From a virus (Duplodnaviria > Caudoviricetes): 33,894 nt of DNA. Each line of letters opens with the position of its first letter. The stretch's first letter is position 1. The notes beneath the pieces were generated by a model, which saw only the letters and a list, made by a program, of their open reading frames with translations, had not been told where the DNA came from and ran no database searches. The stretch lies in the IMG/VR virus record IMGVR_UViG_3300020045_006358, positions 1 through 33,894 of that record; one strand, written 5' to 3'. A program made the position numbers and the translations under genes. Positions 19,695 through 33,894 of this stretch are shown here, piece by piece.

Positions 19695-20219
19695 TCAACC
19701 CTCTGCTCCCGGCTCGGCTATAGCTTCTGTTTTAATTTTAGCCTTGTTCTCATCGGAAATAGTCATGCGCTTCTCAATGGCGTCATAGTTCCCGTCGCGC
19801 TTGTATGCCTCGATAGCGTTCTTCCATGCCTGGGTGTTGGGGTGGAGGTCGGGCTTGATCGTTCGTGGCTTCTCCGTTGAAATCCGCAAGCCCTCGACAG
19901 TATCCTTACCGAAGCGCACATGGTCATCGACATAGATTGTCACGGGTACGTTATTCCAGTCGTCAATAAAGGCCGACCCGGTAAGTTTTTTAAGGGTGCG
20001 GGAATTTGTGGCGTTCAAGATCATCGGCTTCAACGCCTCGCCGGGCCGGATCTCTTTTTCAGAGAAATATGCCGTGTTAAAAACGTCCTTGGTTTTCTTT
20101 GTCTGGTCGGGATCAAGCCGGACTTTAGCAATCACCAGAACTGTGGGCTCTACAATATCGGCGCTTGACAGATACGGGGAATCGAATGCCTTGCGGTAAT
20201 GTGTCTTGTTCTCGTTCAT
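19695..20219 (-). CDS. Uncharacterised protein in the ssDNA-annealing protein position
   Basis: Immediately upstream of the exonuclease; SPYLSSAD, KPMILNATN, FIDDW, EGLRI motifs; no RecT/ERF/Sak motif recognised. Confidence 0.6.
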   Translation of the reverse strand: MNENKTHYRKAFDSPYLSSADIVEPTVLVIAKVRLDPDQTKKTKDVFNTAYFSEKEIRPGEALKPMILNATNSRTLKKLTGSAFIDDWNNVPVTIYVDDHVRFGKDTVEGLRISTEKPRTIKPDLHPNTQAWKNAIEAYKRDGNYDAIEKRMTISDENKAKIKTEAIAEPGAEG

Positions 20220-20222
20220 CGT

Positions 20223-20507
20223 TTATCTCCATCCTGCGGCATCGCGCCGTTCTTCGTATTTTGCCTGTTCGTATTCGGCCAGCCGTTCGGCCTTGGCTTC
20301 CGCTGCAATTTTTGCGCGTTCCCATCGGATCTTGTCTTCGATGAGCGAGACAACCTTGTCTTTCAAGTCGTCCGATTCTATGACTTCGGCCTTGATATAT
20401 CCCAACATTGGCCCACCATCCCACTCGTAACCAACTACAATATCTTTCCCGCCCCACTGGATTGTGATCTCTTCCATCCCGCAATCTGTAATTGTTATTC
20501 CAGTCAT
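20223..20507 (-). CDS. Hypothetical protein
   Basis: 94 aa, C-terminal helix ending YEERRD. Confidence 0.65.
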   Translation of the reverse strand: MTGITITDCGMEEITIQWGGKDIVVGYEWDGGPMLGYIKAEVIESDDLKDKVVSLIEDKIRWERAKIAAEAKAERLAEYEQAKYEERRDAAGWR

Positions 20508-20534
20508 TTCTTATCCCCTATACGTTTTGCCAAA

Positions 20535-20693
20535 TCACGCCCCAGCCAGCCAAGCAAGGCCAGCCAAAAGGCCGATAACAAGACATAGAATAGTGGCATC
20601 CTTCGCTACCTCCATCGTGGTCTGTCTCGCCATTTTAAGAAATTGGGCCGCATCGTACAGCATAGGGCCGGTGATGGTTTGGGTGGGTTTCAT
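20535..20693 (-). CDS. 52-aa peptide with C-terminal TM segment
   Basis: Manual translation MKPTQTITGP...TILCLVIGLLAGLAWLAGA; ATGA overlap. Confidence 0.5.
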   Translation of the reverse strand: MKPTQTITGPMLYDAAQFLKMARQTTMEVAKDATILCLVIGLLAGLAWLAGA

Positions 20694-20887
20694 GCCGCCA
20701 CCTCAAACGCCTCGGCCTGTGCTTTGTCAACGATGGGCCGGAAGGTCTTCGACATGAAGTCCAGCCGGTCGCAGTAATTCGCCATGTCAAACGTCAGTGG
20801 GAGCTCGGCGGGTGACTCGGCAATGATCCGGGAAAGTTCTTCCTTCGCTGTGATGGTTCGGTAAAATGCGTCGATCAATGACTTCAT
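20690..20887 (-). CDS. Hypothetical protein, probable first gene of the early operon
   Basis: RBS aaagga before MKSLIDAFYR; ends EVAA. Confidence 0.6.
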   Translation of the reverse strand: MKSLIDAFYRTITAKEELSRIIAESPAELPLTFDMANYCDRLDFMSKTFRPIVDKAQAEAFEVAA

Positions 20888-21320
20888 GGAGGTTCCTTTC
20901 TTTTTGGTTTGCGGCCTCGGCTTCTTTCGCATTTCGCCCAACGCGCTGGTGATCGTTCGGGGCCGATAGTTTAATGACAGCCGCTTTCTGCTGAATGCCT
21001 CCGGTCCAAGGCGGATGTGGCTCACTCAGCATTTCAAAGATTTCCGGGGGATTCGTGGATTGCGAGGTTACGAGTTAACCCCCGGTCGGCTGAATTGCCG
21101 AAATCGTTATATTTTGTGTAGCCCCCGCCAGCCACCGGGGGCGTTATCTGACTTGCGGAACTTGCCCGGTGACTGGCCGGGTCTTTGAGGTTGGTTGCGG
21201 CTGGTGAAATTGGTATTGCGTCCCCATTCGGGGTGGCCTCCACCCCTTTCTGAATATAGGGTTTTAGCCGTTCTCCCAACGGCTCCAAATCAATGGGCCG
21301 TTTCGTGGGTTGATGGTTTG

Positions 21321-21349
21321 GTTATACGCTGACTGGCACATTTTGTCAA
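21321..21349 (-). promoter_or_regulatory. PL-like sigma70 promoter with operator-like site
   Basis: TTGACA-17 bp-TATAAC; contains ATACGC-N6-GCACAT. Confidence 0.85.
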
Positions 21350-21396
21350 TAGAAAAATGCGCGCATAGGCTTAATATTTATTTTTTACCTGGGGAA

Positions 21397-21789
21397 TTAA
21401 AAACGGGTAGAGTGTGGCTTTTTTCGGGTTGGGGTGGGAGGTGCTAACTTCGATTGTGATTTTAGCAAATATTTATTTCTAATATCTGTATATTTATATT
21501 GCATAGCAATAAGGGCCTTATTTTTTTTCAAAAGTTCCACTGATAGCTTGTTTATCTGCTCTATTAGGAGCCGTGTAACATCGGATTCTACACTCCCGCC
21601 CCGGTTGCAATATTTTTCCCACACTCTTTTTAGGTGGTTGTAAATTTCGGGGCCTGGGTTTTTTATTTTTCCGGTTTTGATCTTGCTTAGATTGTCGTGT
21701 TTGAAACCCTCTTGCCTGACAAGATCCGCCATTTTCATTTTTGCCGCTGAAAGTGTTTCTTCTAATAGTTCTCTGGCTGGTTTTTCCAT
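21397..21789 (-). CDS. CI-like repressor (XRE HTH plus coiled coil, no S24 peptidase)
   Basis: ADLVRQEGFKHDNLSKIKTGKIKNPG HTH; divergent from cro; AT-rich. Confidence 0.75.
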   Translation of the reverse strand: MEKPARELLEETLSAAKMKMADLVRQEGFKHDNLSKIKTGKIKNPGPEIYNHLKRVWEKYCNRGGSVESDVTRLLIEQINKLSVELLKKNKALIAMQYKYTDIRNKYLLKSQSKLAPPTPTRKKPHSTRF

Positions 21790-21807
21790 TCGACACCTCT
21801 TTTGCGC

Positions 21808-21836
21808 TTGACAAAATACGCTAATGGGCGTATGCT
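21808..21836 (+). promoter_or_regulatory. PR-like sigma70 promoter with palindromic operator
   Basis: TTGACA-17 bp-TATGCT; ATACGC-N6-GCGTAT inverted repeat over spacer and -10. Confidence 0.85.
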
Positions 21837-21843
21837 TGTATCC

Positions 21844-22029
21844 ATGAAACTACAAGACTACCTATCAAACACCGGCCAATCGATCCTTGCTTTCTCTAAA
21901 AAATCCGGGGTTATTCACTCAACCCTCTGGAGAATGATTAATGAAGGCAGAGAACCTAACTTCAAAACAATGCAGAAAATAATTGACGCCTCTGGAGGAA
22001 AGATCACCATAGCCGCCTATTTTGATTAA
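21844..22029 (+). CDS. Cro-like HTH regulator
   Basis: MKLQDYL...AFSKKSGVIHSTLWRMINEGREP...IIDASGGKIT; 61 aa. Confidence 0.85.
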   Translation: MKLQDYLSNTGQSILAFSKKSGVIHSTLWRMINEGREPNFKTMQKIIDASGGKITIAAYFD

Positions 22030-22058
22030 AATATGTTCCGCTAAATATGGTTTGTCAA
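22030..22058 (-). promoter_or_regulatory. Leftward promoter in PRE-like position
   Basis: TTGACA-17 bp-CATATT directly downstream of cro, pointing toward the repressor. Confidence 0.55.
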
Positions 22059-22107
22059 GTAAAAATTGTGTTTTTTTGCGTATACGCAAATTAATCAAGG
22101 GGATGCA

Positions 22108-22269
22108 ATGCGAGAAATAGCCAAAATTCAACTTGCCGCACTCACCGAATACGCCAAGCGGCTCGAAAAGGTGAGAAGGCCGGATAGCCCGTATCTGCAC
22201 GATGAGCTTTTTAGAATCGCCCGGATTAAGGCGCGAATTATCAAGGACAAATTAAGGGGTGCTGAATGA
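22108..22269 (+). CDS. Small hypothetical protein (cII position)
   Basis: RBS aagggg; ATGA overlap with initiator gene. Confidence 0.55.
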   Translation: MREIAKIQLAALTEYAKRLEKVRRPDSPYLHDELFRIARIKARIIKDKLRGAE

Positions 22270-23045
22270 GTGGGATGCCATGGTTCAGGATGTATTCCGA
22301 AATGATAGAAGACCCTAAGGTCGGGTCGCTTCAAGATGGTGAGTTTAGGCTATGGGTCGAGCTTCTTTGTCTCGCGTGTTTGTCCGGGGCGGATGGTGAT
22401 ACTCAAATGACAATAGAAGAGCTTAATTGGAAACTTCGAAGAAACGTTTCTGAAACGTTTCTGAAACTTCAATGTAACAATTTAGTTGTTTCATGCAACG
22501 TTGGTGGTCGAGAAACCGTCAAAATCACGAATTGGAACAAGCGCCAATACCCGAGCGACAACAGCACCAGCCGGGTTATAAAGTTCCGTAAAAACAACGC
22601 CATACCAACAAAAAAAGGAAACGTTTCAGAAACGTTTCTGAAACGGAAATGTAACGGTATAGATACAGATACAGATACAGATAATAAAAGACTCTTCGTC
22701 GGAGATTCCGACGAGGTGAGACTTTCTGAAATCCTTTTTTCAAAGATTCTCCTGAATAACCGCAATGCAAAAAAGCCCAACATCCAATCTTGGGCGAAAC
22801 ATATTGACCTGATGATTCGGGTGGACAAGCGGCCCCCGGCAGATATTGAGTCAGTCATTGTCTGGTGCCAGTCCGACACGTTTTGGATGAACAACATCCT
22901 GTCAACGGCGAAGCTCCGTGAAAAGTACGATCAACTTTCCTTGAAGATGGGGCGGAATATCCCACGGCCAACAATAGTCCCACCTACCGGCCCGGACGGT
23001 AAGCCAGAAACCCAAGAAGAACGGATAAGGCGGCTATGCAGCTAA
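22266..23045 (+). CDS. Replication initiator (O-like / replisome organizer)
   Basis: MPWFRMYSEMIEDPKV, ITNWNKRQY...STSRV, DTDTDTD linker, C-terminal FWMNNILSTAKLREKYDQL. Confidence 0.88.
   Translation: MSGMPWFRMYSEMIEDPKVGSLQDGEFRLWVELLCLACLSGADGDTQMTIEELNWKLRRNVSETFLKLQCNNLVVSCNVGGRETVKITNWNKRQYPSDNSTSRVIKFRKNNAIPTKKGNVSETFLKRKCNGIDTDTDTDNKRLFVGDSDEVRLSEILFSKILLNNRNAKKPNIQSWAKHIDLMIRVDKRPPADIESVIVWCQSDTFWMNNILSTAKLREKYDQLSLKMGRNIPRPTIVPPTGPDGKPETQEERIRRLCS
22441..22690. repeat. Iteron-type replication origin inside the initiator gene
   Basis: Palindrome GAAACGTTTC at 22441, 22452, 22618, 22629, in two 38-bp modules; followed by AGATAC repeats and an A-rich tract. Confidence 0.8.
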
Positions 23046-24367
23046 CAACCCCTCCACAGAACATCGACGCAGAGGAAAGCGTAATCGCCGGGTGCCTCAT
23101 GTTCCCGGAGTTCGCTTCCGGGTTCGCCGGGCTGATTAAGCCGGACGATTTTTACCGGACGCAGAATGGAGTGATATTCGCTGAAATTTGCAAGCTGGTT
23201 GAAAAGCGCCAACAGGTCGACGCGCTGATTATCTGCGACCGGCTCAAGGATGCGATATTTCCGGGGGATCTTGGAATAGCACAGTACATAGCCGAGGTTT
23301 CGACCGCCCCCGTGCCGAGCAACGCCGAACATTACGCTGGAATAATCAAAGACGCCTCCACCTCAAGAAAAACCATCCAGACCTGCCAGAAGGCAATTTC
23401 GGACCTGTCTTCCGGCGAACCCATAGCGGAGGTCATAAACAAGCTCCAGTCGTCCACGCTCGACTTAGGGGCAGATTCTGCCGACAAATTTTACACAATG
23501 GAGGATTTGGCGCACAGCAGTATCGAGCGATACGAGGCCATGAGAAAACAGGCTATATCAGAAAAGCGCATCAAGACCGGCTTCCATCTGCTCGACCACC
23601 TTACCGGGGGGATCTCCGGGTCGAAGCTGATTATCATTGCCGCCCGCCCAGGTGTGGGGAAGACCGCCTTCATGTGCAACTTGATCGAAAACATGGCGAA
23701 GGCCCGGAGGCGTTGCGGTGTCTTTGAGTTGGAGATGGACAAGGAAGAACTGGAAGACAGGTGGTTTTCGTCCCTGTCCGGCATCAATTCCGCAAGGCTC
23801 ACTTCGTCCCAAGAACTTACCCGTGGTGAGTGGGACGATATAAGCCGGGTAGCTGCGGCTAAGGCGTCGTGGCCGGTTATCCTTGATGATACCGGGGGGT
23901 TGACCATAGCAGAAATCAAGCGCCGATGCAGGAAGATGAAAAGTATGGGTGCTGAGATAATTTTCATCGACCAACTTTCCAAGATCAAGGGCAACCGGAA
24001 ACTAGATATTTTTGAGCGCAACACCGAGCACGTTGAAGAACTGGGATCGCTCAAGAAAGAGCTTCGGATTCCCATCGTCCTATTGGCCCAGCTCAACCGC
24101 GATCTCGAAAAGCGGCCCATCCATGAGCGCAAGCCCCGCCTGTCCGACCTGAAAAACACCGGCCAACTTGAGGAAGAGGGTGACATGGTTCTTTTGGGGT
24201 ATCGCCCCTGGTTGTACTCGCAGAAACCAGAGGATGAACCCAAGGCGGAGTGGGAACTCGCAAAACACCGAGGTGGCCCGATCAGCAATATGGAAATGGT
24301 TTGGGTGGCGAAACACGCCAGATTTGAAAACATAGCGAAGGAAGAATGGAGTGGAAAATACCAATGA
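23036..24367 (+). CDS. dnaB: Replicative DNA helicase, DnaB family
   Basis: PPQNIDAEESVI N-domain, AARPGVGKT Walker A, ELEM, LAQLNR, PRLSDLKNTGQLEEEGD, AKHRGGP. Confidence 0.95.
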   Translation: MQLTTPPQNIDAEESVIAGCLMFPEFASGFAGLIKPDDFYRTQNGVIFAEICKLVEKRQQVDALIICDRLKDAIFPGDLGIAQYIAEVSTAPVPSNAEHYAGIIKDASTSRKTIQTCQKAISDLSSGEPIAEVINKLQSSTLDLGADSADKFYTMEDLAHSSIERYEAMRKQAISEKRIKTGFHLLDHLTGGISGSKLIIIAARPGVGKTAFMCNLIENMAKARRRCGVFELEMDKEELEDRWFSSLSGINSARLTSSQELTRGEWDDISRVAAAKASWPVILDDTGGLTIAEIKRRCRKMKSMGAEIIFIDQLSKIKGNRKLDIFERNTEHVEELGSLKKELRIPIVLLAQLNRDLEKRPIHERKPRLSDLKNTGQLEEEGDMVLLGYRPWLYSQKPEDEPKAEWELAKHRGGPISNMEMVWVAKHARFENIAKEEWSGKYQ

Positions 24368-24831
24368 ATTGCATAGATTGCGGAACGAAGAAGTCAAGAT
24401 GCGTTGACACCCGAGCATTCAACATGATCGACGCCGACGGAGAAAAGGTTTGCGGAACTCGCCGGACGTATGAGTGCCGGGAATGCGATATCCGGTTTTC
24501 GACAGACGAGACATATTCCGGGATTGTGGCGTCCAGGGTGGGGCGTGGTGCTCATCTCAAGGCAACCACCAAACATGCCAGGTCAGACATTGCCCGTCAG
24601 GCGCTCAAGGGGAAATATGCCACGATGACCGACGAACAGAAAATCGAGATTGGCAAGCGACTCCAGGCGGGAAGAGAAAAAAAGCGCCAATATACGGCAA
24701 TCGGGAAAGTGGCACTTCAAGAGAACGCAGCCAGAGCCAGGGCCGCAAAAGTGAGCCCTCCCGACGATGTGGCCAAGGGGGTTGAGGCGTTTTTAAAATA
24801 CAGCGAACGATTGAAAGAGAGGGCCGCATAA
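24364..24831 (+). CDS. NrdR-type zinc-ribbon protein lacking an ATP-cone
   Basis: MNCIDCG...RCVDTR...TRRTYECRECDIRFSTDE matches the NrdR N-terminal pattern CxxC..V.DSR..RRRRECxxC..RFTT.E; the C-terminus is a basic helical region. Confidence 0.7.
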   Translation: MNCIDCGTKKSRCVDTRAFNMIDADGEKVCGTRRTYECRECDIRFSTDETYSGIVASRVGRGAHLKATTKHARSDIARQALKGKYATMTDEQKIEIGKRLQAGREKKRQYTAIGKVALQENAARARAAKVSPPDDVAKGVEAFLKYSERLKERAA

Positions 24832-25169
24832 TGCAAGGCATACTACACTCAACGCTATTTTTCACACAGGGCGAGGTCCAAGCCGAGAAGATTTTATGGG
24901 CCATGGTTATTGTCCAGGCCATCCAGGATTTAAAAAGCCCACGACGCGGCCCAATAGCCGAAGCGCACAGGCAGACGGCACGGGATTGGTTTTACAAAAA
25001 CAAGAGCCGGGAGCCTAAATCATTTCATTGGGTTTGCCGGATGCTGGGATTGTCAAAGAGCTATGTTTTGAGGAAGGTTGAAGATTTTGAACTGTCGGCC
25101 AGTTCTGTATCTGCAAAGGCGGGTTGGGCCAAACGGAGCCAAAACATGATTACCAGGAGGGCCGCATAG
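24831..25169 (+). CDS. Conserved-looking phage hypothetical protein
   Basis: LWAMVIVQAIQDL...ARDWF...SFHWVCRMLGL motif. Confidence 0.7.
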   Translation: MQGILHSTLFFTQGEVQAEKILWAMVIVQAIQDLKSPRRGPIAEAHRQTARDWFYKNKSREPKSFHWVCRMLGLSKSYVLRKVEDFELSASSVSAKAGWAKRSQNMITRRAA

Positions 25170-25348
25170 TGGCCCCAAATCAAGAAACCGCTCCAGAATC
25201 GATTTTAACTGGACTTTTCAACGCGGGGCGAATCCATGCCGGGGCTGGAGCGCAAAAGACGTTGTCTGACGAAGCTGGGCCGAAGGATTTGGGAAAATCT
25301 GCTGGAACATGGCCCGACTATTTCACACCACGGGAGGAAGGGCGGCAG

Positions 25349-25588
25349 ATGAAACGAAATGAGGCAATAGCCCTGATTTGTGCGGAGCTTGATAGAGCCC
25401 AAAGCCTCCATCCGACATTCCCGGTTGATACCGTCCACCAGGTCGCCGTTATGGTTGAAGAGGCCGGGGAAGCGATGCAAGCGGCGCTCAATCATGTTTA
25501 CCACGGCGGGCCGCTCGGTGCCGTGAAAACCGAAACCATCCACTCCGGGGCCATGGCGCTCCGGGTGTTGATGAATCTGGGGGTCTGA
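25349..25588 (+). CDS. MazG-like nucleotide pyrophosphohydrolase
   Basis: VMVEEAGEAMQAAL (EExxE) and KTETIHSGAMALR helices; RBS ggagg; possible in-frame N-terminal extension. Confidence 0.65.
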   Translation: MKRNEAIALICAELDRAQSLHPTFPVDTVHQVAVMVEEAGEAMQAALNHVYHGGPLGAVKTETIHSGAMALRVLMNLGV

Positions 25589-25625
25589 TGCCTGACGAAT
25601 CCGACATGGCGAACGACGAGGTAAT

Positions 25626-25925
25626 ATGATTTTAGATAACGACACCGTGGAGAAGGAAGTTAAAAGGCTTTTTCGGGAAATACCAGAATCTTCCCCGCTT
25701 TCCAAAGTTTGGAATTTACAGGTAATCCGCCTTCTCGACTCATTTGAGACTCTTGTGGGATGGTATTGTTCGGATCTTCCAGGATCAACGCTGGGGTTTT
25801 TTTTGGTGAACAGGGTGTTTGCAATAAAAATTCCAGGCAAAATAATGTGCGCGGACATCAAAACAATCTTTGACCGAATATGTATAAAAACAATCGCCTA
25901 TTATGAGTGGGAGCGGCTTTTTTAG
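25626..25925 (+). CDS. Hypothetical protein
   Basis: RBS gagg; 99 aa. Confidence 0.55.
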   Translation: MILDNDTVEKEVKRLFREIPESSPLSKVWNLQVIRLLDSFETLVGWYCSDLPGSTLGFFLVNRVFAIKIPGKIMCADIKTIFDRICIKTIAYYEWERLF

Positions 25926-25950
25926 TCAACCAACGAAAAACGGAGAGAAG

Positions 25951-26163
25951 ATGCACGGAATATTATGCAGCAACCGGGCCTATCACTTCCATGGCTGGAC
26001 GTTTGAAAACCACGCCTACCTCGGGCCGTGGCCTCTCAAAAAGAACGGAGATCCGAGGGAGCGAATGGGCCGGAGATTCCTAAAAATCTACGCCGAGTTT
26101 GACAAACTAACGAGCGCCGAACAGGAGGAATACCGGGTCGGAGGGGGATGTCAGACAATTTAA
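25951..26163 (+). CDS. Hypothetical protein
   Basis: RBS ggag; GWTFENHAYLGPWPLKKNGDPR. Confidence 0.65.
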   Translation: MHGILCSNRAYHFHGWTFENHAYLGPWPLKKNGDPRERMGRRFLKIYAEFDKLTSAEQEEYRVGGGCQTI

Positions 26164-26177
26164 CGAAAGGGGATGTG

Positions 26178-26537
26178 ATGGATTTTTCAAAAGCGCACGA
26201 GGGGGACACGTTGTGGGACAATTTGTATGGGGATTGTTTTGTTGTTGATGTGGAGGAGGCGGGATTGTGGCTTCGGAAGGGGTCGGGCCTCTGTATGGAA
26301 AATTTTTTCCGGAAAATAACCGGCAAAACCGATGCGGGGACACAGCTTTTATACTGGTCAAAACCCACTATTACTGGCGGTGACATTCCCCCGAAGAGGA
26401 CGGTCAAAAAGAAGGTTGAGGGGTTGGTTGTTGTCTTTAAAGACGGGGCAATGATGGTAAACGATATCGGCAAAAGATCATCCGACGATGTGGTAAAAAT
26501 AATCGCAATCTCAACCGAAATTGAGGTGGAGGAATGA
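26178..26537 (+). CDS. Hypothetical protein, paralog of 14579-14983
   Basis: LLYWSKPTITGGDIPPKR motif; ends EIEVEE. Confidence 0.7.
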   Translation: MDFSKAHEGDTLWDNLYGDCFVVDVEEAGLWLRKGSGLCMENFFRKITGKTDAGTQLLYWSKPTITGGDIPPKRTVKKKVEGLVVVFKDGAMMVNDIGKRSSDDVVKIIAISTEIEVEE

Positions 26538-26908
26538 ATTTATCAGATTATCATAGAGCGGCAACAGACCTTAATTTGCCGAGTGGGGTCGCCCACGTAA
26601 TAAGTAGCGCCAGCATACCAAAGGGTTATATTGCGGTACGAGATCTACGGCAAGCGAGTAGGTTTTACGTTATGATTGAGGAGGGGTTGTTGTTTTATTA
26701 TGACGTTTTAACAGCCCCAACTTTAAAAATAGGGGCGCACATATCAAAAAAACACGTTATGCAGCTGGGTACATATTGGGCGTGGGCTGAGTATGGGGGC
26801 GAACGGGCAATAAGTGCCATGCTTTTAAAACAGCGTGACATTCTCCGGGATAAGGCCCAGTGGTGGAAGAGACTATTACGGAAGGGGGCGCGGTGGGCGA
26901 TAAGGTAA
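26534..26908 (+). CDS. Hypothetical protein
   Basis: ATGA-coupled; 124 aa. Confidence 0.55.
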   Translation: MNLSDYHRAATDLNLPSGVAHVISSASIPKGYIAVRDLRQASRFYVMIEEGLLFYYDVLTAPTLKIGAHISKKHVMQLGTYWAWAEYGGERAISAMLLKQRDILRDKAQWWKRLLRKGARWAIR

Positions 26909-27315
26909 AAATCAAAATTGGCATCGACCCCGACATAGCCCGTTCTGGATATGCCGAAATGGTAAACGGGGCGCTGACCTGCATAACGACTATGTCATTT
27001 TGGCACCTATGCGATCTAATCAAAGAGGCGTCCAGAATATCAAGCGAACTCGTAGTCTATATCGAAGCGGGCTGGCTCCACCAAAAAAGCAACTGGCATG
27101 GTTGCCACGGAAATGTGGCCCAGAAGATTGCTAAAAATGTCGGCACAAATCACGCGGTGGGGAAGTTGTTTGTGCAATATTGCCAGCGCCACGAGATAAA
27201 ATATCAAGAGGTTTTGCCGAAAGGGAAGGTTGACGCCAAGGTTTTTAGATCAATCACCGGGTGGCCCGGTAGGACGAATCAGGAAGAGCGAGACGCGGCG
27301 ATGTTAATTTTTTAG
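26893..27315 (+). CDS. RuvC-like Holliday junction resolvase
   Basis: IGIDPD, VYIE and NQEERDAAML acidic catalytic motifs of the RNase H fold. Confidence 0.75.
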   Translation: MGDKVKIKIGIDPDIARSGYAEMVNGALTCITTMSFWHLCDLIKEASRISSELVVYIEAGWLHQKSNWHGCHGNVAQKIAKNVGTNHAVGKLFVQYCQRHEIKYQEVLPKGKVDAKVFRSITGWPGRTNQEERDAAMLIF

Positions 27316-27327
27316 CGGAGGTATAAA

Positions 27328-27405
27328 ATGACAAGAGAAGACATTGCATCAATGGCCGTGTTTGTCCTCGGGCTGGCGTTCCTTGCGCTGGTGGTGTGCA
27401 AATGA
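27328..27405 (+). CDS. 25-aa hydrophobic peptide
   Basis: RBS ggagg; MTREDIASMAVFVLGLAFLALVVCK. Confidence 0.45.
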   Translation: MTREDIASMAVFVLGLAFLALVVCK

Positions 27406-27566
27406 CCTGCCCAGACTGCCAATCCGAGATGGCACACATCGGCACCACGGCCAAGGGGGAGCATTACGAGTGCGTTAACTGTGAGAGGGTTACAACGGTT
27501 GTTGATAACCACGGCACAGCAAAACCAAAAGCTCTCGGTATGTCCCCGCCCCGGTATGGGCCTTGA
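27402..27566 (+). CDS. Small zinc-ribbon protein
   Basis: MTCPDC...YECVNC; ATGA overlap. Confidence 0.5.
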   Translation: MTCPDCQSEMAHIGTTAKGEHYECVNCERVTTVVDNHGTAKPKALGMSPPRYGP

Positions 27567-27660
27567 CGGCCTCGATAAGTGCGGCCTCCTCGGGAGGTAG
27601 AAATATCAGCACCTGTTTTTTCCCCGCCCGGTGCTTGTTCCGGTGTTTATCTTTTTCCAT
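27490..27660 (-). CDS. Ribbon-helix-helix-like regulator
   Basis: RBS ggagg; GKKQVLIFLPPEEAALIEAVK...TYRELLVLL. Confidence 0.55.
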   Translation of the reverse strand: MEKDKHRNKHRAGKKQVLIFLPPEEAALIEAVKAHTGAGTYRELLVLLCRGYQQPL

Positions 27661-27708
27661 GCAATCCTCCACGGCCCCGCCAGAATTGACGGGGCTGGTA
27701 TGGGGCTT

Positions 27709-27903
27709 TTATTTGTAGCAGGACAACGTGGCCCTATCGCCATTGATCGAGGCCAAAACAGCCTCAAAAACATCAACCCTCTCCTGGACCAATAACCCCA
27801 CCCATCGGGTTATTGGATTTTCGCTGGTAACAAGCTCGGCGGTTTTTGTCTGCCTGACAAGGGCGGCTTCTATCTCGCGCTTAAGTTCGCTCATTTTTTT
27901 CAT
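27709..27903 (-). CDS. Hypothetical protein
   Basis: 64-aa ORF in leftward cassette. Confidence 0.55.
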   Translation of the reverse strand: MKKMSELKREIEAALVRQTKTAELVTSENPITRWVGLLVQERVDVFEAVLASINGDRATLSCYK

Positions 27904-27963
27904 AGCATTGTTCCAATTCTGCCCGCAGGCGGTAAGCCCCCGTTGCCGGGGGCGGTGTGATTG

Positions 27964-28230
27964 TCACGCAACAACATGCCCATTGCGGACAATGGTGATA
28001 TTTTTACCGTTTTTAGCTCTTTCATACACGATGTCCCCGTATGTCATGGTGCTGTTCCATGCTGCGTATAAATTTTGGCCGGGTCCAATCTGATCCGAAA
28101 AAGGCACCATCACTTTTCGGCCAGATATACTCCCTGACATGCGGCTCCAACCCTCCACCATCCACCCTTTTTTACTCTGCCTAACAGTATATCCAGACCG
28201 GTCCCACTCGCGCGTGTATGTGTTTTCCAT
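27964..28230 (-). CDS. Hypothetical protein
   Basis: RBS gagggg; 88 aa. Confidence 0.65.
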   Translation of the reverse strand: MENTYTREWDRSGYTVRQSKKGWMVEGWSRMSGSISGRKVMVPFSDQIGPGQNLYAAWNSTMTYGDIVYERAKNGKNITIVRNGHVVA

Positions 28231-28249
28231 GGTCCACCCCTCCCGCCAG

Positions 28250-28678
28250 TTAGTCGTTATCGTTTTTTGTGTGCGGCTCGACGCTTGGGACAGCCCCCGC
28301 CCTGTTGTCTAACTCCGACGCCTCACCAGCGCCCACAGCCGCAAGCAGGCGAGCACAATTATCACAATAGTGGGCCTTAACCTGCACGGCCCGTCCGCCA
28401 AATCTGGTCCACTCGATTTGGGAGTATGCCGTCCGGATGTCAAGATTGGCTCCGCATCTCTCGCAATGCCCCGCATAATCGGAGTCCTCCATTTCCACCA
28501 CGGCCTCTATATTTTTGTAGCTGATAGGGGTTCCTCGCCCGGCGGCGGCCATTGCTTTTTTCATTTGCCTAAAAATCTGGTCATTAAACCAATCGATTTT
28601 AGGATGGGCCACAGTCTCAACGGTTCCATCCGGGCGCTTCACCGTGATTTCCGCTCTTCTCGGTGCTATCGTTTTCGT
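28250..28678 (-). CDS. Zinc-finger protein with apparent ACG start
   Basis: HCERC...YCDNC; AGGAG RBS 8 nt before in-frame ACG at 28678; first canonical start is GTG 28642. Confidence 0.65.
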   Translation of the reverse strand, partial: TKTIAPRRAEITVKRPDGTVETVAHPKIDWFNDQIFRQMKKAMAAAGRGTPISYKNIEAVVEMEDSDYAGHCERCGANLDIRTAYSQIEWTRFGGRAVQVKAHYCDNCARLLAAVGAGEASELDNRAGAVPSVEPHTKNDND

Positions 28679-28725
28679 GGCTCAATCTCCTGTTTGGCGT
28701 TGGTTTGTTGCTCACTGTTGATTAA

Positions 28726-28755
28726 TGTCTATCATGCGTAGTTACGCTATGTCAA
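28726..28755 (-). promoter_or_regulatory. Promoter of the leftward cassette with palindromic site
   Basis: TTGACA at 28750-28755, weak extended -10 TGaTAGACA, GCGTA-gt-TACGC palindrome in spacer, AT-rich UP-like tract. Confidence 0.55.
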
Positions 28756-28799
28756 ATAAAAAATGCAATTAATTTAAAAATAATTCAAAATAATTTTAA

Positions 28800-28847
28800 C
28801 CACAACATATTGTGATTCAACTATTGACAAACCACAACATCTTGTGG
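28800..28847. promoter_or_regulatory. Tandem NrdR-box-like operators
   Basis: CCACAACATATTGTGA (28800-28815) and CCACAACATCTTGTGG (28832-28847) versus consensus acaCwAtATaTwGtgt; 32 bp start to start. Confidence 0.8.
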
Positions 28848-28853
28848 TATAAT
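28824..28853 (+). promoter_or_regulatory. Late sigma70 promoter
   Basis: TTGACA-18 bp-TATAAT with TG extended -10, upstream of terminase genes. Confidence 0.88.
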
Positions 28854-28879
28854 ACAAACATAGTTAAAGTTTTACGAAT

Positions 28880-28953
28880 GCCGGGAGGAGCCCGACGAGA
28901 AAAATAAACCGCATGTGGCGATACTCGCTTCCGAGGCACTCCCGGTTTTTTTT
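28880..28953 (+). terminator. Attenuator/terminator-like leader hairpin
   Basis: CCGGGAG (28881-87) pairs with CTCCCGG (28939-45), followed by T8; long imperfect inner stem. Confidence 0.6.
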
Positions 28954-28992
28954 AAACAAAAAGCTTGGCTAACCTAAAACAGTTTGAGCGCC

Positions 28993-29271
28993 ATGGAAAA
29001 GTTAGAGAGCCGGAAAGAATTTAACAAAAGGAAAAAAAGTCCACAGCATGGGAAGCGTGGACCGGGGAAGGTGCAGCAAGAGTTAAAAGAGATGATCCTC
29101 AGCGCCCTCGATCAGTCCGGAGGAGTGGAATATTTAGTTAGACAGGCAGATCAGAACCCCAACGGATTCATGACCCTGCTGGGTAAAGTTCTCCCCCTCC
29201 AATTACACGGAGCCGGGAAAAGTGGCGAGTTGGTTATAACGATCACCAAGGCAGAGGCATCAATAATTTGA
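28993..29271 (+). CDS. Terminase small subunit
   Basis: LKEMILSALDQSGGVEYL...NPNGFMTLLGKVLPLQ motif; overlaps TerL start. Confidence 0.8.
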   Translation: MEKLESRKEFNKRKKSPQHGKRGPGKVQQELKEMILSALDQSGGVEYLVRQADQNPNGFMTLLGKVLPLQLHGAGKSGELVITITKAEASII

Positions 29272-30611
29272 CGTTTACCCCAACCCAAAAACAAGACGAG
29301 GCTTGGTCGCTTATGAGTGGCCCGGCTAAACACGTCATGTTGGTGGGTGGGTCTCGATCAGGCAAAACGTTTGTAACATGTAGGGCGCTGGCAATGAGGG
29401 CCCTGCTTGCCCCCAAGTCACGCCACGCCGTCCTCCGCTTCCGGTTCAACCACGTCAAAACCTCGATAGTATTAGACACATGGCCCAAAATGATGGGCCT
29501 GTGCTTCCCGGAAATCAAAGCCGAACTCAACAAAACCGATTGGTACGCAGAGTTTCCAAACGGCTCACAGGTTTGGTTCGGTGGGTTGGACGACAAAGAC
29601 CGCACCGAAAAAATCTTGGGGAACGAATACGCTACAATCTTTTTTAACGAGATATCCCAGATCCCTATCGGATCTAAAGACATGGCGCTGACCCGGTTAG
29701 CTCAAGCGTGTGACGTGCCAGCTGTTGGTAAGCAACTCCGGCTCAAGGCATATTACGACTGCAACCCGCCATCACAGGCGCACTGGTGTTACCAGCAGTT
29801 CGTCCGGGGCATTGACCCTGACTCTAAAAAGCCCCTGCAAAACAGGGCCGATTTCGCATGGATGCGGCTCAACCCCGCCGACAATATCAGCAACCTCCCC
29901 GCCGAATACATCAAGTCGTTAGAGTCAATGCCGGTCAGGATGCGCCAGCGTTTCCTTGAGGGCGTTTTTGCAGACGTGACCGATGGTGCGTTGTGGAATG
30001 TGGAGTCGATTGACTCTGCCCGCGAAGTCAACGGTAACCTCCCCGACATGCAGCGGATTGTCGTGGCCGTGGACCCATCTGGGAGCGGTGACGTTAACAA
30101 TACCGACGCGGACGCAATCGGGATCATCGTTGCCGGTCTCGGGTTAGACGGGCGCTGTTATATCCTGGAGGATTGCACGTGCAAATGTGGCCCCGCCGCC
30201 TGGGGAAACGTTGTTGCTACGGCATACGATAGACACCAAGCGGACCTGATCGTGGCTGAGAAAAACTATGGCGGCGAAATGGTGCGCCGGGTTTTACAGG
30301 TCGCGTCTCCGAATGCCCGGATCGAACTAGTTACGGCGTCCCGTGGCAAATGCGTCCGCGCAGAACCGATCAGCGCGCTCACCGAGCAGGGCAAAATTAA
30401 ATTTGCGGGGTATTTCCCGGAGTTGGAGGACGAGCTCTGTGGGATGACAATCAACGGATATATTGGGGAAAAATCACCGAACAGGGCAGACGCTTTTGTC
30501 TGGGCGGCGTCTAAACTGTTCCCCGGAATTATCCGGGGCGAAAAGAAACCCGCCCTAAAAGATAGACCATATATGGGGCATCAACAGGCGACGGGGTGGC
30601 TGGCGGCATGA
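29268..30611 (+). CDS. Terminase large subunit
   Basis: GGSRSGKT Walker A, IFFNE Walker B, DCNPP, nuclease VAVDPS and SPNRADA. Confidence 0.95.
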   Translation: MTFTPTQKQDEAWSLMSGPAKHVMLVGGSRSGKTFVTCRALAMRALLAPKSRHAVLRFRFNHVKTSIVLDTWPKMMGLCFPEIKAELNKTDWYAEFPNGSQVWFGGLDDKDRTEKILGNEYATIFFNEISQIPIGSKDMALTRLAQACDVPAVGKQLRLKAYYDCNPPSQAHWCYQQFVRGIDPDSKKPLQNRADFAWMRLNPADNISNLPAEYIKSLESMPVRMRQRFLEGVFADVTDGALWNVESIDSAREVNGNLPDMQRIVVAVDPSGSGDVNNTDADAIGIIVAGLGLDGRCYILEDCTCKCGPAAWGNVVATAYDRHQADLIVAEKNYGGEMVRRVLQVASPNARIELVTASRGKCVRAEPISALTEQGKIKFAGYFPELEDELCGMTINGYIGEKSPNRADAFVWAASKLFPGIIRGEKKPALKDRPYMGHQQATGWLAA

Positions 30612-32713
30612 CAAACGAAGATATCCTGAAACAGTGCCGAGAACGGCTCCCGATCGCAGTAGATGCGGTATCCCATTCGCGCCGGTATGAGTTGGACGAT
30701 TTGCGGTTTGTTGCTGGGTCCCCCGACAATCAGTGGCAGTGGCCCAATGACGTTTTAGGGACTCGCGGGTCTGTCCAGGGGCAGTCGGCTGGGGCGAGGC
30801 CGTGTTTAACGATCAACAAACTCCCGCAGCACGTCAGGCAGATCACCAATGACCAGCGGCAGAACAGGCCAGCCGGTAAGGTAATCCCCGTTGACGATCA
30901 GGCAGACGTTGAGGTGGCCGAGATCCTGGATGGGATAGTCAGGCACATCGAATACATATCCGACGCTGACGTGGCATATGACACCGCGTGCGAGTGTCAA
31001 GTACAGTTTGGTGAGGGATATTTCCGGATATTGACCGAGTATTGCGACGACACCACATTCGACCAGGATATCAAAATCGGGCGCATTCGCAACGCGTTTT
31101 CCGTCTATATAGACCCCAATATTCAAGACCCGTGTGGGAGCGATGCACGGTATGGGTTTATCACTCAAGACATCCCCCGCGACGAGTACGAGTCATCCTA
31201 TCCTGAGGCGTCTATCGTGTCGGCTATCGAGGCGCGGCATGGAGTTGGTGACGACAAACTCCGGCAATGGGTGACCGAGGAAACGGTACGTGTTGCGGAG
31301 TATTTCTATGTCGAGTCCAAGCCCCAGACCGTCAACCTCTACCCCGGCGGCGCCGTTGCGGTAAAGGGTACACCAGAGGATGTGGAACTGATCGCCCAAT
31401 GGGGCAAGCCGCTCAAGTCCAGAGAATCCGAATCCCGCACGGTCCAGTGGGTAAAAACCAACGGGTATGAGATCCTCGAGCAGTCGGAGTGGCCGGGGAA
31501 ATACATACCGATTATCCGCGTGGTTGGGAACGAGTACGAGGTGGATGGGGAGTTGCACGTTTCCGGGATCATCCGTAACGCTAAGGACCCCCAGCGGCTG
31601 TACAATTACTGGGCCTCACAGGAGGCTGAAATGCTGGCTCTTGCCCCCAAAGCTCCATTCATCGGGTATGCCGGTCAGTTTGAGGGGTTTGAGGAGAAAT
31701 GGAAGACCGCCAATACGGTCAATTGGCCATACCTTGAAGTCAACATGGACGCCACAGATTCCACTGGTGCCGCCCTCCCGTTGCCTCAACGGTCTACCCC
31801 GCCGATGCCCCAGACGGCTATCATCCAAGCGAAGATGGGCGCTGCCGAAGACATCAAGAGTGTAACCGGCCAGTATGACGCTTCCATCGGCGCTCAGTCA
31901 AATGAGAGATCGGGCAAAGCGATCATTGCGCGGGAGCGGCAAAGTGACACCGGGTCATATCACTACGTGGACAACCTTGCCCGCGCCATCCGGTACGGAG
32001 TTAGGCAGATCGTGGACCTCATCCCTAAAATCTACGATACGCAACGCATAGCCCGAATCGTGGGTATTGATGGTGAGGTGTCACATGCCAAAATAGACCC
32101 AACGCAGTCTGAGCCAGTACGAAAGTACCGAGACGCAAACGGATCAATCCAGAGCGTCTACAATCCGTCTATTGGCACGTATGACGTCCGAGTGTCCACA
32201 GGCCCGAGCTATATGACCAAACGTCAAGAGGCCCTCGACGCCATGACGCAGATTATGCAAGCCAACCCCGCCATATTCCAGATCGCCGGTGATTTGATCG
32301 TCAAAAACATGGATTGGCCCGGAGCCGAAGAGCTTGCGGAGCGGATTAAACGGACTATCGATCCCAAACTACTCGGAGACGACAAGGAAGGCCCCACGCC
32401 GGAGCAGATGCAGATACAGGCCATGGGGCAACAGATGGACCAAATGAAGCAGATGATCGACGGATTCCAGCAGTCCCTTGATGCCCGAGAGGTCAAAGTT
32501 AAAGAGTATGAGGCGGAAACGAAACGGATGCAGGCAGTGCAGGCCGGGATGTCTCCCGAGCAGATCCAAGAGATTGTTTTAGGGACTGTCCACGGGATGA
32601 TTACATCCGGCGATCTGATTGCCGAAACACCGCCCCGAGAGCCTGAAATACAGCCCGAACCCATGCAGGAGCCGATGCAGGGGCCTGAACCGCAACCCAT
32701 GGAGGCCATGTAA
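30608..32713 (+). CDS. Portal protein, P22-like
   Basis: RPCLTINKL, AKDPQRLYNYW, SNERSGKAIIAR, YVDNLARA, LIPKIYDT, GPSYMTKRQE. Confidence 0.95.
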   Translation: MTNEDILKQCRERLPIAVDAVSHSRRYELDDLRFVAGSPDNQWQWPNDVLGTRGSVQGQSAGARPCLTINKLPQHVRQITNDQRQNRPAGKVIPVDDQADVEVAEILDGIVRHIEYISDADVAYDTACECQVQFGEGYFRILTEYCDDTTFDQDIKIGRIRNAFSVYIDPNIQDPCGSDARYGFITQDIPRDEYESSYPEASIVSAIEARHGVGDDKLRQWVTEETVRVAEYFYVESKPQTVNLYPGGAVAVKGTPEDVELIAQWGKPLKSRESESRTVQWVKTNGYEILEQSEWPGKYIPIIRVVGNEYEVDGELHVSGIIRNAKDPQRLYNYWASQEAEMLALAPKAPFIGYAGQFEGFEEKWKTANTVNWPYLEVNMDATDSTGAALPLPQRSTPPMPQTAIIQAKMGAAEDIKSVTGQYDASIGAQSNERSGKAIIARERQSDTGSYHYVDNLARAIRYGVRQIVDLIPKIYDTQRIARIVGIDGEVSHAKIDPTQSEPVRKYRDANGSIQSVYNPSIGTYDVRVSTGPSYMTKRQEALDAMTQIMQANPAIFQIAGDLIVKNMDWPGAEELAERIKRTIDPKLLGDDKEGPTPEQMQIQAMGQQMDQMKQMIDGFQQSLDAREVKVKEYEAETKRMQAVQAGMSPEQIQEIVLGTVHGMITSGDLIAETPPREPEIQPEPMQEPMQGPEPQPMEAM

Positions 32714-33075
32714 TGAACGCTAATGACCTCGTAGGGCTCCTTTTCCTTGGGCGGGATGTCGCGCACTCGGTACACCTCAACACCCGCTCGTTTGCCAAGC
32801 ACAGGGCCTTAAATGAGTTTTATGACTCGGTTGTGGGGTTAGCCGACTCATTTGCGGAGACGTACCAGGGCCGGAACGGATTGATTGGTCAGATCAAGCT
32901 CCAGCCGGTGAAGCAGAAGGGGGACATTGTTGCTTTCTTGGAAGGGCAGTTGAAGGAGATTGAAGCAGGCCGGTATGAGGTTTGCCCCAAAGAAGACAGC
33001 GCATTGCAGAATATTATTGATGAAATTGTGGGGCTCTATTTGACCACGCTCTACAGGTTGAAGTTTTTGGCATAA
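32713..33075 (+). CDS. Ferritin/Dps-like small protein (DUF5856-like)
   Basis: HSVHLNTRSFAKHRALNEFYD...DSFAETYQG...LQNIIDEI...TLYRLKFL. Confidence 0.75.
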   Translation: MNANDLVGLLFLGRDVAHSVHLNTRSFAKHRALNEFYDSVVGLADSFAETYQGRNGLIGQIKLQPVKQKGDIVAFLEGQLKEIEAGRYEVCPKEDSALQNIIDEIVGLYLTTLYRLKFLA

Positions 33076-33131
33076 CCACGGCGAGACGCCGGTAACCGTA
33101 CTCTGACGGATATCAGAGGCAAGGAGGAAAA

Positions 33132-33737
33132 ATGGAAGACGAGATTCAAGAACAGGCGGTTGAACCAGTAGTTGAAGTGCAACCCGAAGTGGTGACGGAG
33201 ACCGTAGAAACTCCGGATGAAAAGTATGAGGAAAAAAAGTTCACACAGGCTGAGCTTGAGGAAATCATTAAAAAGCGCCTGGACCGGGAGCAGCGGAAAC
33301 GGGAACGGATCGAACAGACAAAGGCTTTAACCCAACCCACAGCACTGGACCCGAACACGTTTGACGACGTGGACAAATACGCCGATGCGCTGGCGGCCCA
33401 GAAGATAGCGCAGAGAGAAGCAACAGAGCAGACAGTTAGGGTGCGGGAGGCTTATTTCGAAAAAGAGGACACCGCGCGTGACAAGTACGACGACTTTGAC
33501 CAAGTGGCCTACAACCCGTCAGTCAGGATCACAGCCGACATGGCCGAGGCAATCCGGAACGCCGATGTCGGGCCGGATATCGCCTACTGGCTGGGGAGTA
33601 ATCTGAAAGAAGCCGAGCGGATTTCGAAGCTGCCCCCGTTACAACAGGTCAAGGAAATTGGAAAAATCGAGGCCAGGTTGGAAGACAAGCCACCCGAGCC
33701 AAAAAAAACAACTACAGCGCCGACCCCAATCAAGCCG
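33132..33737 (+). CDS. Capsid scaffolding protein, truncated by an inversion junction
   Basis: RBS aaggagg; manual translation MEDEIQEQ...KKFTQAELE...KYDDFDQVAYNP...GPDIAYWLGSN...EIGKIEARL...TTAPTPIKP. Confidence 0.85.
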
Positions 33738-33894
33738 ATGTGCGCCTGGTCCGTGATAGTAACGGTGGTGTACTGCTGGCTTTCGTCCTGCACTCCTAGC
33801 GCCGCGCCCTTGGTTACCAATGCGCGATCAGGCAACCGGACCTTCAACGTCGCGCCGATCTTGGCACCTTCTTTTGCAAAACTGTCGTCGTGCT
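33731..33894 (-). CDS. P22-like major capsid protein, internal N-proximal fragment (inverted)
   Basis: HDDSFAKEGAKIGATLKVRLPDRALVTKGAALGVQDESQQYTTVTITDQAHIGL. Confidence 0.85.

What the first reader, a model, noticed from the sequence alone, without database searches (positions are those of the whole stretch)
28800..28853. Tandem NrdR boxes over the late (terminase-portal-capsid) promoter: packaging possibly gated by the dNTP sensor NrdR
Seen: two 16-bp imperfect palindromes, CCACAACATATTGTGA and CCACAACATCTTGTGG, 32 bp apart. The second fills the spacer of a consensus TTGACA/TGgTATAAT promoter that points into terS-terL-portal. Known: NrdR binds paired acaCwAtATaTwGtgt boxes about three helical turns apart, represses ribonucleotide reductase genes when loaded with dATP/ATP, and releases when dATP is low. 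No RNR gene lies in this window. Inference: the phage borrows NrdR as a timer, keeping morphogenesis off while dNTPs are plentiful and switching it on once replication drains them. I know of no described phage late switch of this kind.
Basis: partly seen in the sequence, partly recalled or inferred. Interest (0 to 1): 0.88.

Follow-up and report, generated by a model that had tools for sequence, protein, structure and literature searches.

The report
NrdR operator on phage packaging promoter
This P22-like phage has a textbook binding site for NrdR, the bacterial repressor that senses DNA building blocks, laid over a consensus promoter that faces its DNA-packaging genes, and many unrelated phages carry such sites in front of head genes, so the host sensor likely holds virion production back until phage DNA replication lowers dATP or outnumbers the repressor.

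Summary
Confirmed: two 16-bp boxes (28800-28815, 28832-28847), linker 16, the second filling the spacer of a 12/12 sigma70 promoter facing terS-terL-portal. Both keep all six NrdR-critical positions. The same pattern precedes RNR genes in 45 of 80 prokaryotic loci, and its spacing in viral contigs peaks at 14-17 and 25-26 bp, the NrdR helix phase. Close TerL relatives lack the boxes (0 of 55). Unrelated phages have them: 21 of 55 viral box-pair clusters face terminase, portal, protease or capsid genes, against 10 of 70 plain strong promoters (p 0.003); no RNR faced away from a pair among the ORFs scanned. A phage sharing the leftward cassette (L476) has a weaker pair before its own late operon. 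New here: the phage encodes an NrdR-type zinc ribbon without ATP-cone (24346-24831) that keeps D15/R17; other box-bearing phages lack one, so host NrdR is the general binder. Repression and timing are untested, and a leader hairpin plus T8 may stop the transcript before terS. Not found in print (seven searches); this scan noted the same idea earlier on other genomes.

The parts
28800..28815 (.). NrdR box 1, upstream of the -35 element
   Evidence: C4, A6, A8, T9, T11, G13 all kept; 22.3 bits
28832..28847 (.). NrdR box 2, filling the promoter spacer; its end supplies the extended -10 TG
   Evidence: six critical positions kept; differs at 2 of 16 from the synthetic box bound at 46-91 nM in PMC13584703; 23.5 bits
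28824..28853 (+). Consensus sigma70 promoter TTGACA-18-TATAAT with extended -10, facing terS
   Evidence: 12 of 12, the only such site in 20000-33894; same box1/-35/box2/-10 layout as the prokaryotic nrdD-adjacent loci L409 and L380
28756..28799 (.). A+T-rich tract (93%), UP-element-like, between the divergent promoters
   Evidence: role inferred
28880..28953 (+). Leader stem-loop (arms 28880-28887 and 28939-28946) ending in T8; possible terminator or attenuator
   Evidence: -26 to -29 kcal/mol, z -1.5 to -2.4 by window, -0.5 for the whole leader; the T-run without the stem is shared with L001 and L002; inconclusive
28993..29271 (+). Probable terminase small subunit
   Evidence: phrog_11043, unknown function; overlaps the terL start; conserved before terL in L001 and L002; identity inferred from position
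29268..30611 (+). Terminase large subunit
   Evidence: phrog_979 E 2e-65
30596..32713 (+). Portal protein
   Evidence: phrog_156 E 2e-124
33132..33893 (+). Head scaffolding protein, cut by the contig end
   Evidence: phrog_8865 E 9e-27
24346..24831 (+). Phage protein P0001: NrdR-type zinc ribbon (about 24364-24510) plus basic helices, no ATP-cone; lies right after dnaB
   Evidence: PF22811 17.6 bits, below the cut-off; ESM Atlas 0.90 to a viral NrdR-like cluster (76); Foldseek top 10 all NrdR, E 0.02-0.27 (89); keeps both CxxC and R12, D15, R17, R26, R27, R37, loses R28 and R29
27312..28755 (-). Divergent cassette of small ORFs with its own -35 (28755-28750) and a separate palindrome in its spacer
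   Evidence: homologues of its first ORF in L476 and L477

Best explanation
The two boxes form a complete NrdR operator over a consensus sigma70 promoter facing terS-terL-portal, and host NrdR likely represses this promoter while dATP is high and would let go once phage replication lowers dATP or makes more operator copies than there is repressor, so that packaging genes would come on after DNA synthesis. Shown: sequence, spacing, overlap with the promoter, recurrence before head genes in unrelated phages. From established NrdR biochemistry: the dATP/ATP-loaded tetramer binds paired boxes three turns apart and kinks the DNA, the ATP-only form does not bind. Inferred: that the host has NrdR, that it binds here, that the transcript reads through the leader hairpin into terS, and the timing. 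The module looks acquired, probably as a ready-made nrd-type promoter, since the closest TerL relatives have an ordinary upstream gene in its place.
For: Six critical positions and the 16-bp linker match PMC13584703 and PMC12051234. Positive control: 45 of 80 prokaryotic loci with the pattern have NrdA/J or NrdD facing away within 1.6 kb. Viral spacing with gaps free to vary: 49 of 71 clusters at linker 14-17 and 9 at 25-26. 21 of 55 viral clusters face terL, portal, protease or capsid within 3 kb, against 10 of 70 strong-promoter controls (Fisher p 0.003; length-stratified OR 4.9, p 0.0015; in-phase pairs only 16 of 47, p 0.02). In complete records G013 and G017 the only boxes with at most 1 mismatch are the pair before the terminase genes. 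L476 (G006) repeats the layout: leftward cassette, weaker pair 32 bp apart, promoter, late operon with capsid gene. L171 has a 46 of 51 identical box-linker-box 1.5 kb before another terL. 5 of 79 metagenome loci from a looser pattern face head genes. No Q or other late activator among 58 ORFs.
Against: No pair in 55 TerL-related loci and no box in 5 whole related records, so it is not a conserved trait of this lineage. 34 of 55 viral clusters did not meet the strict head-gene test; several face ligases, NAMPT, primase, helicase or lie beside integrases, so viral pairs are not late-specific. The best predicted promoter faces the head gene in only 16 of 23 loci (p 0.09; RNR control 33 of 45). 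A hairpin plus T8 lies before terS. The phage encodes its own candidate binder (P0001). The host is unknown: no cultured relative above about 50% TerL identity.
Confidence: 0.6

Rival explanations
1. The phage's own sensor-less zinc ribbon P0001, made with the replication genes, works the switch: it would bind the boxes itself or pair with host NrdR ribbons and break the tetramer, releasing both the late promoter and host RNR genes.
For: P0001 has the NrdR ribbon fold and keeps the specificity residues D15 and R17 and 4 of 6 backbone arginines; two other viral ribbons examined lack D15. It follows dnaB, and no other late regulator was recognised. NrdR tetramers depend on ribbon-ribbon pairing (PMC9110341).
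Against: Box-bearing viral records lack such a gene: 1 of 48 had a short 19-position hit, 0 of 15 near-complete ones; promoter controls had 3 of 40, so co-occurrence here may be chance. The family match is below the cut-off, no relatives of P0001 were found, and two arginines of the RRRR motif are lost.
Confidence: 0.14
2. Decoy: the pair mainly soaks up NrdR as genomes multiply, which derepresses host RNR and raises dNTP supply for a phage without RNR; any effect on late genes is secondary.
For: No RNR among the ORFs scanned; near-optimal boxes; some viral loci carry several or tandem boxes (L118, L124, L125, L136); many pairs are not at head genes.
Against: A decoy needs no promoter, yet box 2 exactly fills a 12/12 promoter spacer; only one pair in 33.9 kb; a decoy does not predict enrichment at head genes.
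Confidence: 0.1
3. The promoter makes a short RNA of about 95 nt that stops at the hairpin and T8, as at lambda pR'/tR' (recalled); NrdR gates that RNA, and terS needs an antiterminator or another promoter.
For: Long stem closing right at T8; strong promoter at the lambdoid late position after rusA.
Against: Folding is weakly significant (z -1.5 to -2.4), the stem encloses about 50 nt, and the local hairpin alone is -4.1 kcal/mol; the T-run belongs to a leader shared with L001 and L002, which have no stem; no Q family hit; no Rfam match.
Confidence: 0.1
4. A captured nrd-type promoter used only for its strength; the boxes are passengers.
For: Same layout as nrdD-adjacent promoters; absent from close relatives.
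Against: Both boxes are intact while the neighbouring leftward -10 and start codon differ from those of homologues; the leader shows no other match to fetched loci; recurrence in unrelated phages.
Confidence: 0.06

Closest known systems
NrdR operators of bacterial RNR promoters (nrdAB, nrdHIEF, nrdDG, nrdJ; PMC13584703, PMC12051234, PMC9110341)
   Same: Two 16-bp boxes, six critical positions, 16-bp linker, overlap with the RNA polymerase site; layout matches nrdD-adjacent loci L409 and L380.
   Different: Lies in a phage and faces packaging genes. In E. coli and P. aeruginosa only RNR operons carry paired boxes (10.1101/2025.03.28.645925, passages). Binding not tested here.
Phage use of host regulators: LexA (GIL01 and others), Spo0A (phi29), CtrA lytic deferment (as described in PMC9437464, passages)
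   Same: A host transcription factor site on phage promoters ties the lytic programme to host state, arising independently in unrelated phages.
   Different: The signal would be the dATP/ATP ratio, which the phage's own replication changes, and the target is the late block. That paper does not mention NrdR.
Lambda and P22 late control (pR', tR', Q) and P2 Ogr-type zinc-finger late activators (recalled, from no call)
   Same: Strong promoter at the late position followed by a possible terminator; a small phage zinc-ribbon protein is present.
   Different: No Q or Ogr family hit among 58 ORFs; the site is an NrdR pair.
NrdR protein (PF22811 zinc ribbon plus ATP-cone), for P0001
   Same: Ribbon fold, two CxxC, D15 and R17.
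   Different: No ATP-cone, so no nucleotide sensing; a 7-residue longer loop; R28 and R29 replaced.

Membership tests
NrdR operator | 16-bp partial palindrome with C4, A6, A8, T9, T11, G13 | tested here: met
   both boxes 6 of 6
NrdR operator | Two boxes with a 15-16 (or 25-27) bp linker | tested here: met
   linker 16; viral spacing peaks at 14-17 and 25-26
NrdR operator | Overlaps the RNA polymerase site | tested here: met
   box 2 lies between -35 and -10, and the -35 lies in the linker; the promoter is a consensus match only
NrdR operator | Bound by dATP/ATP-loaded NrdR and repressed in vivo | not testable with these tools
   needs binding and reporter assays
NrdR regulon as described | Paired boxes control RNR operons | tested here: not met
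   downstream genes are terS, terL, portal; no RNR among 58 ORFs
NrdR operator | Host encodes NrdR | not testable with these tools
   host unknown; nrdR is in 77% of bacterial genomes (PMC13584703)
NrdR protein (P0001) | N-terminal zinc ribbon with D15, R17 and arginine cluster | tested here: inconclusive
   fold and key residues match but the score is below the Pfam cut-off and RRRR is half kept
NrdR protein (P0001) | ATP-cone | tested here: not met
   no ATP-cone hit at E 0.05; structural match limited to about 50 residues
Lambda-type Q antitermination | Q gene before the late promoter | tested here: not met
   no Q family hit among 58 ORFs; a divergent Q could be missed
Lambda-type Q antitermination | Intrinsic terminator in the late leader | tested here: inconclusive
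   not picked by the terminator scan

The most novel reading that the evidence does not exclude
A two-part late switch: host NrdR holds the packaging promoter shut, and the phage's own ATP-cone-less NrdR ribbon, made with DnaB, displaces or poisons NrdR. One protein would open the late operon and lift repression of host ribonucleotide reductase, making it a phage anti-NrdR.
Probability: 0.14. Interest if true: 0.88.

Novelty: new variant of a known kind. Interest (0 to 1): 0.72.

Why it matters
Small phages without their own RNA polymerase or sigma factor must time virion assembly after replication; the textbook answers are phage-made antiterminators and activators. A host dNTP sensor on the packaging promoter would be a different solution, in which metabolic state or genome copy number sets the switch. 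It recurs with several unrelated terminase types and would take the paired-box NrdR regulon beyond RNR genes. It is cheap to test, because NrdR proteins bind heterologous boxes (PMC13584703), so E. coli reporters suffice. The sensor-less phage ribbon is a concrete candidate for an NrdR antagonist.

Tried and rejected
Conservation in TerL relatives: none. The exact promoter-plus-box pattern had 0 matches in viral contigs. No informative DNA match of 27300-29000 in cultured phages, none for L119's region; the best cultured TerL is about 50% identical, so no host or model phage. Rfam: no real match. Sequencing runs: none was listed, no RNA holder listed. No relatives of P0001. Co-occurrence of phage ribbons with box pairs: not seen; two ribbon-bearing control records have single boxes but no pair within 2 mismatches. 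No complex model of the P0001 ribbon was obtained, so its dimerisation is open; a pass would in any case have leaned on solved NrdR structures. A leftward TTGAAT-16-TAAAAT over box 1 (9 of 12) is at chance level (16 found, 12.1 expected). A phage-specific repressor of unrelated type was rejected because the same site with NrdR spacing occurs across unrelated phages and at RNR genes. A packaging-site role was not excluded for other loci, but here the boxes sit on a perfect promoter.

Full report
What the window is. The window is a whole 33.9-kb linear virus record, about 90% complete. PHROG scans of 58 ORFs show a P22-like layout: ejection and tail genes, endolysin, a leftward recombination block, a divergent pair of HTH genes, initiator, DnaB, RusA-type resolvase, then terL, portal and scaffold; no RNR, integrase or Q-type hit. 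The host is unknown.

Observation. Both boxes are as reported, 32 bp apart with a 16-bp linker; the -35 lies in the linker and box 2 fills the spacer of the only 12/12 promoter in the 14 kb scanned. They are the only exact matches in the window and score 23.5 and 22.3 bits against 8.2 for the next site (matrix from pattern-selected boxes).

Is it an NrdR site? PMC13584703 (parts 1-2 of 4 read) names C4, A6, A8, T9, T11, G13 as the conserved positions and 15-16 bp as the usual linker, and shows that both boxes are needed; both window boxes keep all six, and box 2 differs at two positions from their synthetic box. PMC12051234 (passages) shows binding optima at 14-17 and 24-27 bp. As a positive control I scanned prokaryotic genomes with a two-box pattern and a free gap: of the 80 loci with flanks (120 returned, from 7 of 64 parts), 45 have NrdA/J or NrdD facing away within 1.6 kb (blastp clusters, representatives confirmed by Pfam) and one more has NrdB. 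The same pattern in viral contigs gave 124 loci from 24 of 64 parts; with the 23 loci these collapse to 74 clusters, and among the 71 with a member the linker is 14-17 in 49, 25-26 in 9 and something else in 13. Phage pairs therefore carry NrdR's helix-phase signature.

Relatives. In 55 of the 80 TerL-related loci (those with near full-length matches) up to 1.2 kb upstream of terL held no box with at most 1 mismatch; four had a lone 2-mismatch site. Five whole related records had none. The two closest (88% and 84%) share the 50-nt leader from the T-run to terS but have an ordinary co-directional gene upstream. The promoter module is thus an acquisition of this phage. The first ORF of the leftward cassette has two homologues. 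L477 has no pair. L476 has the same arrangement as the window: cassette and leftward promoter, a weaker pair 32 bp apart (2 mismatches each, one box lacking C4), a rightward promoter-like site, then HTH genes and a long operon with HNH and capsid genes.

What viral pairs face. For the 55 clusters with at least 1.5 kb of DNA I scanned most ORFs of 170 aa or more (some of the 154 listed were left out). 21 have terL, portal, protease or capsid facing away within 3 kb at E 1e-12 or better; three more pass looser criteria (L098, L146, L175). L081 and L110 are two sites of one phage. No RNR faced away from a pair; in the L085 family NrdD lies upstream, and the pair faces an NAD ligase. The control was a consensus extended sigma70 promoter in the same collection: 70 of 80 loci after dropping 10 same-contig duplicates, 81 ORFs of 200 aa or more, 10 hits. 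Fisher p 0.003; in-phase pairs only 16 of 47, p 0.02; records of 14 kb or more 10 of 36 against 2 of 41, shorter ones 11 of 19 against 8 of 29 (p 0.07), Mantel-Haenszel OR 4.9, p 0.0015. The size cut-offs differ slightly between the sets. Of 15 chosen records searched whole, the complete G013 and G017 have no boxes other than the pair before their terminase genes, and G009 and G010 have two pairs each in the packaging block; but complete G021 and G027 have theirs beside integrases. In a metagenome sample with a looser pattern, 28 of 79 loci face RNR-family genes and at least 5 face head genes (39 of 66 unassigned ORFs scanned). Against a simple late-promoter rule: other pairs face ligases, NAMPT, primase, helicase or Erf, and the best predicted promoter faces the head gene in only 16 of 23 loci (p 0.09; 33 of 45 for RNR; weights approximate and recalled).

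The leader. About 28860-28992 holds a stem closing at T8. Its significance is modest and the T-run is shared with relatives that have no stem, so termination is unresolved; it decides whether the promoter reaches terS unaided.

A phage NrdR-like protein. ORF 24346-24831 after dnaB has a weak PF22811 hit; its best natural PDB sequence match is S. coelicolor NrdR (E 0.04), the ESM Atlas places it at 0.90 next to viral NrdR-like ribbons, and a single-sequence model (mean pLDDT 63) returns NrdR for all ten top Foldseek hits, none below E 0.001. PMC9110341 (passages) assigns specificity to D15 and R17, backbone contacts to R12, R26-29 and R37, and tetramer formation to ribbon pairs; P0001 keeps all but R28 and R29 and has no ATP-cone. 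Such genes are not general partners of box pairs: 1 of 48 box-bearing records had a short hit, 0 of 15 near-complete ones, against 3 of 40 controls and 0 of 28 TerL relatives. Host NrdR is therefore the general binder, and P0001 is a local possibility.

Mechanism. [quoted passage not shown] Bound over the spacer it would block RNA polymerase. A phage without RNR draws on host dNTPs, so replication would lower dATP and multiply operators; both release the promoter after DNA synthesis starts. These steps are inferred.

Novelty. Seven full-text searches pairing NrdR with phage, prophage, terminase, late genes, zinc ribbon or phage infection listed no paper on NrdR control of phage genes; I saw listings and abstract starts only for those hits. 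The library lacks most subscription papers; Rodionov and Gelfand 2005 and all supplements were not seen and may list phage sites. 10.1101/2025.03.28.645925 (passages) finds paired boxes only at RNR operons in two species. Co-option of LexA, Spo0A and CtrA is known (PMC9437464, passages), so this is a new variant of a known kind. This scan's earlier notes describe the same idea on other genomes; I had reached my reading before that call and count them as no evidence.

Verdict. A real, well-formed NrdR operator on a packaging-gene promoter, part of a recurrent pattern; regulation untested. Interest 0.72.

Noticed in passing
window 24346-24831 (+): NrdR-type zinc ribbon without ATP-cone, keeping D15 and R17, directly after dnaB; no relatives found.
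   Followed up: partly
window 2-940 (-): The head-closure gene (phrog_578) runs opposite to the tail block that starts at 1329; an inversion or an assembly join. No end repeats in the record.
   Followed up: no
window 28676-28755 (-): The first leftward ORF has ACG where homologues L476 and L477 have ATG; its promoter has a palindrome in the spacer and a poor -10 compared with L476.
   Followed up: partly
window 28879-28908 (+): A nine-codon ORF with a GGAGGAG run lies inside the leader stem; possible attenuator peptide or chance.
   Followed up: no
window 32713-33075 (+): DUF5856 protein (PHROG label: starvation-inducible regulator) between portal and scaffold.
   Followed up: no
L085, L086, L088, L091, L100, L102, L138, L148, L152: Large phages with NrdR pairs facing NAD- or ATP-dependent DNA ligase, or PRPP kinase and NAMPT, rather than their RNR.
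   Followed up: no
L156:2864-2911: Inovirus-like contig with a box pair (linker 18) between a Zot-like gene and a replication gene.
   Followed up: no
L092, L101, L103, L111: Box pairs next to integrase genes or at contig ends, possibly near attachment sites.
   Followed up: no
L097, L110, L133, L175, L530: Box pairs directly before portal genes (in L110, L133, L175 and L530 between terL and portal), three with near-consensus promoters facing the portal.
   Followed up: partly
L476:3-347 (-): Small protein resembling the NrdD C-terminal zinc ribbon inside the operon that follows the NrdR-like pair.
   Followed up: no
L403, L431: Bacterial box pairs facing a PnuC-type transporter and a deoxynucleoside kinase, not RNR.
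   Followed up: no
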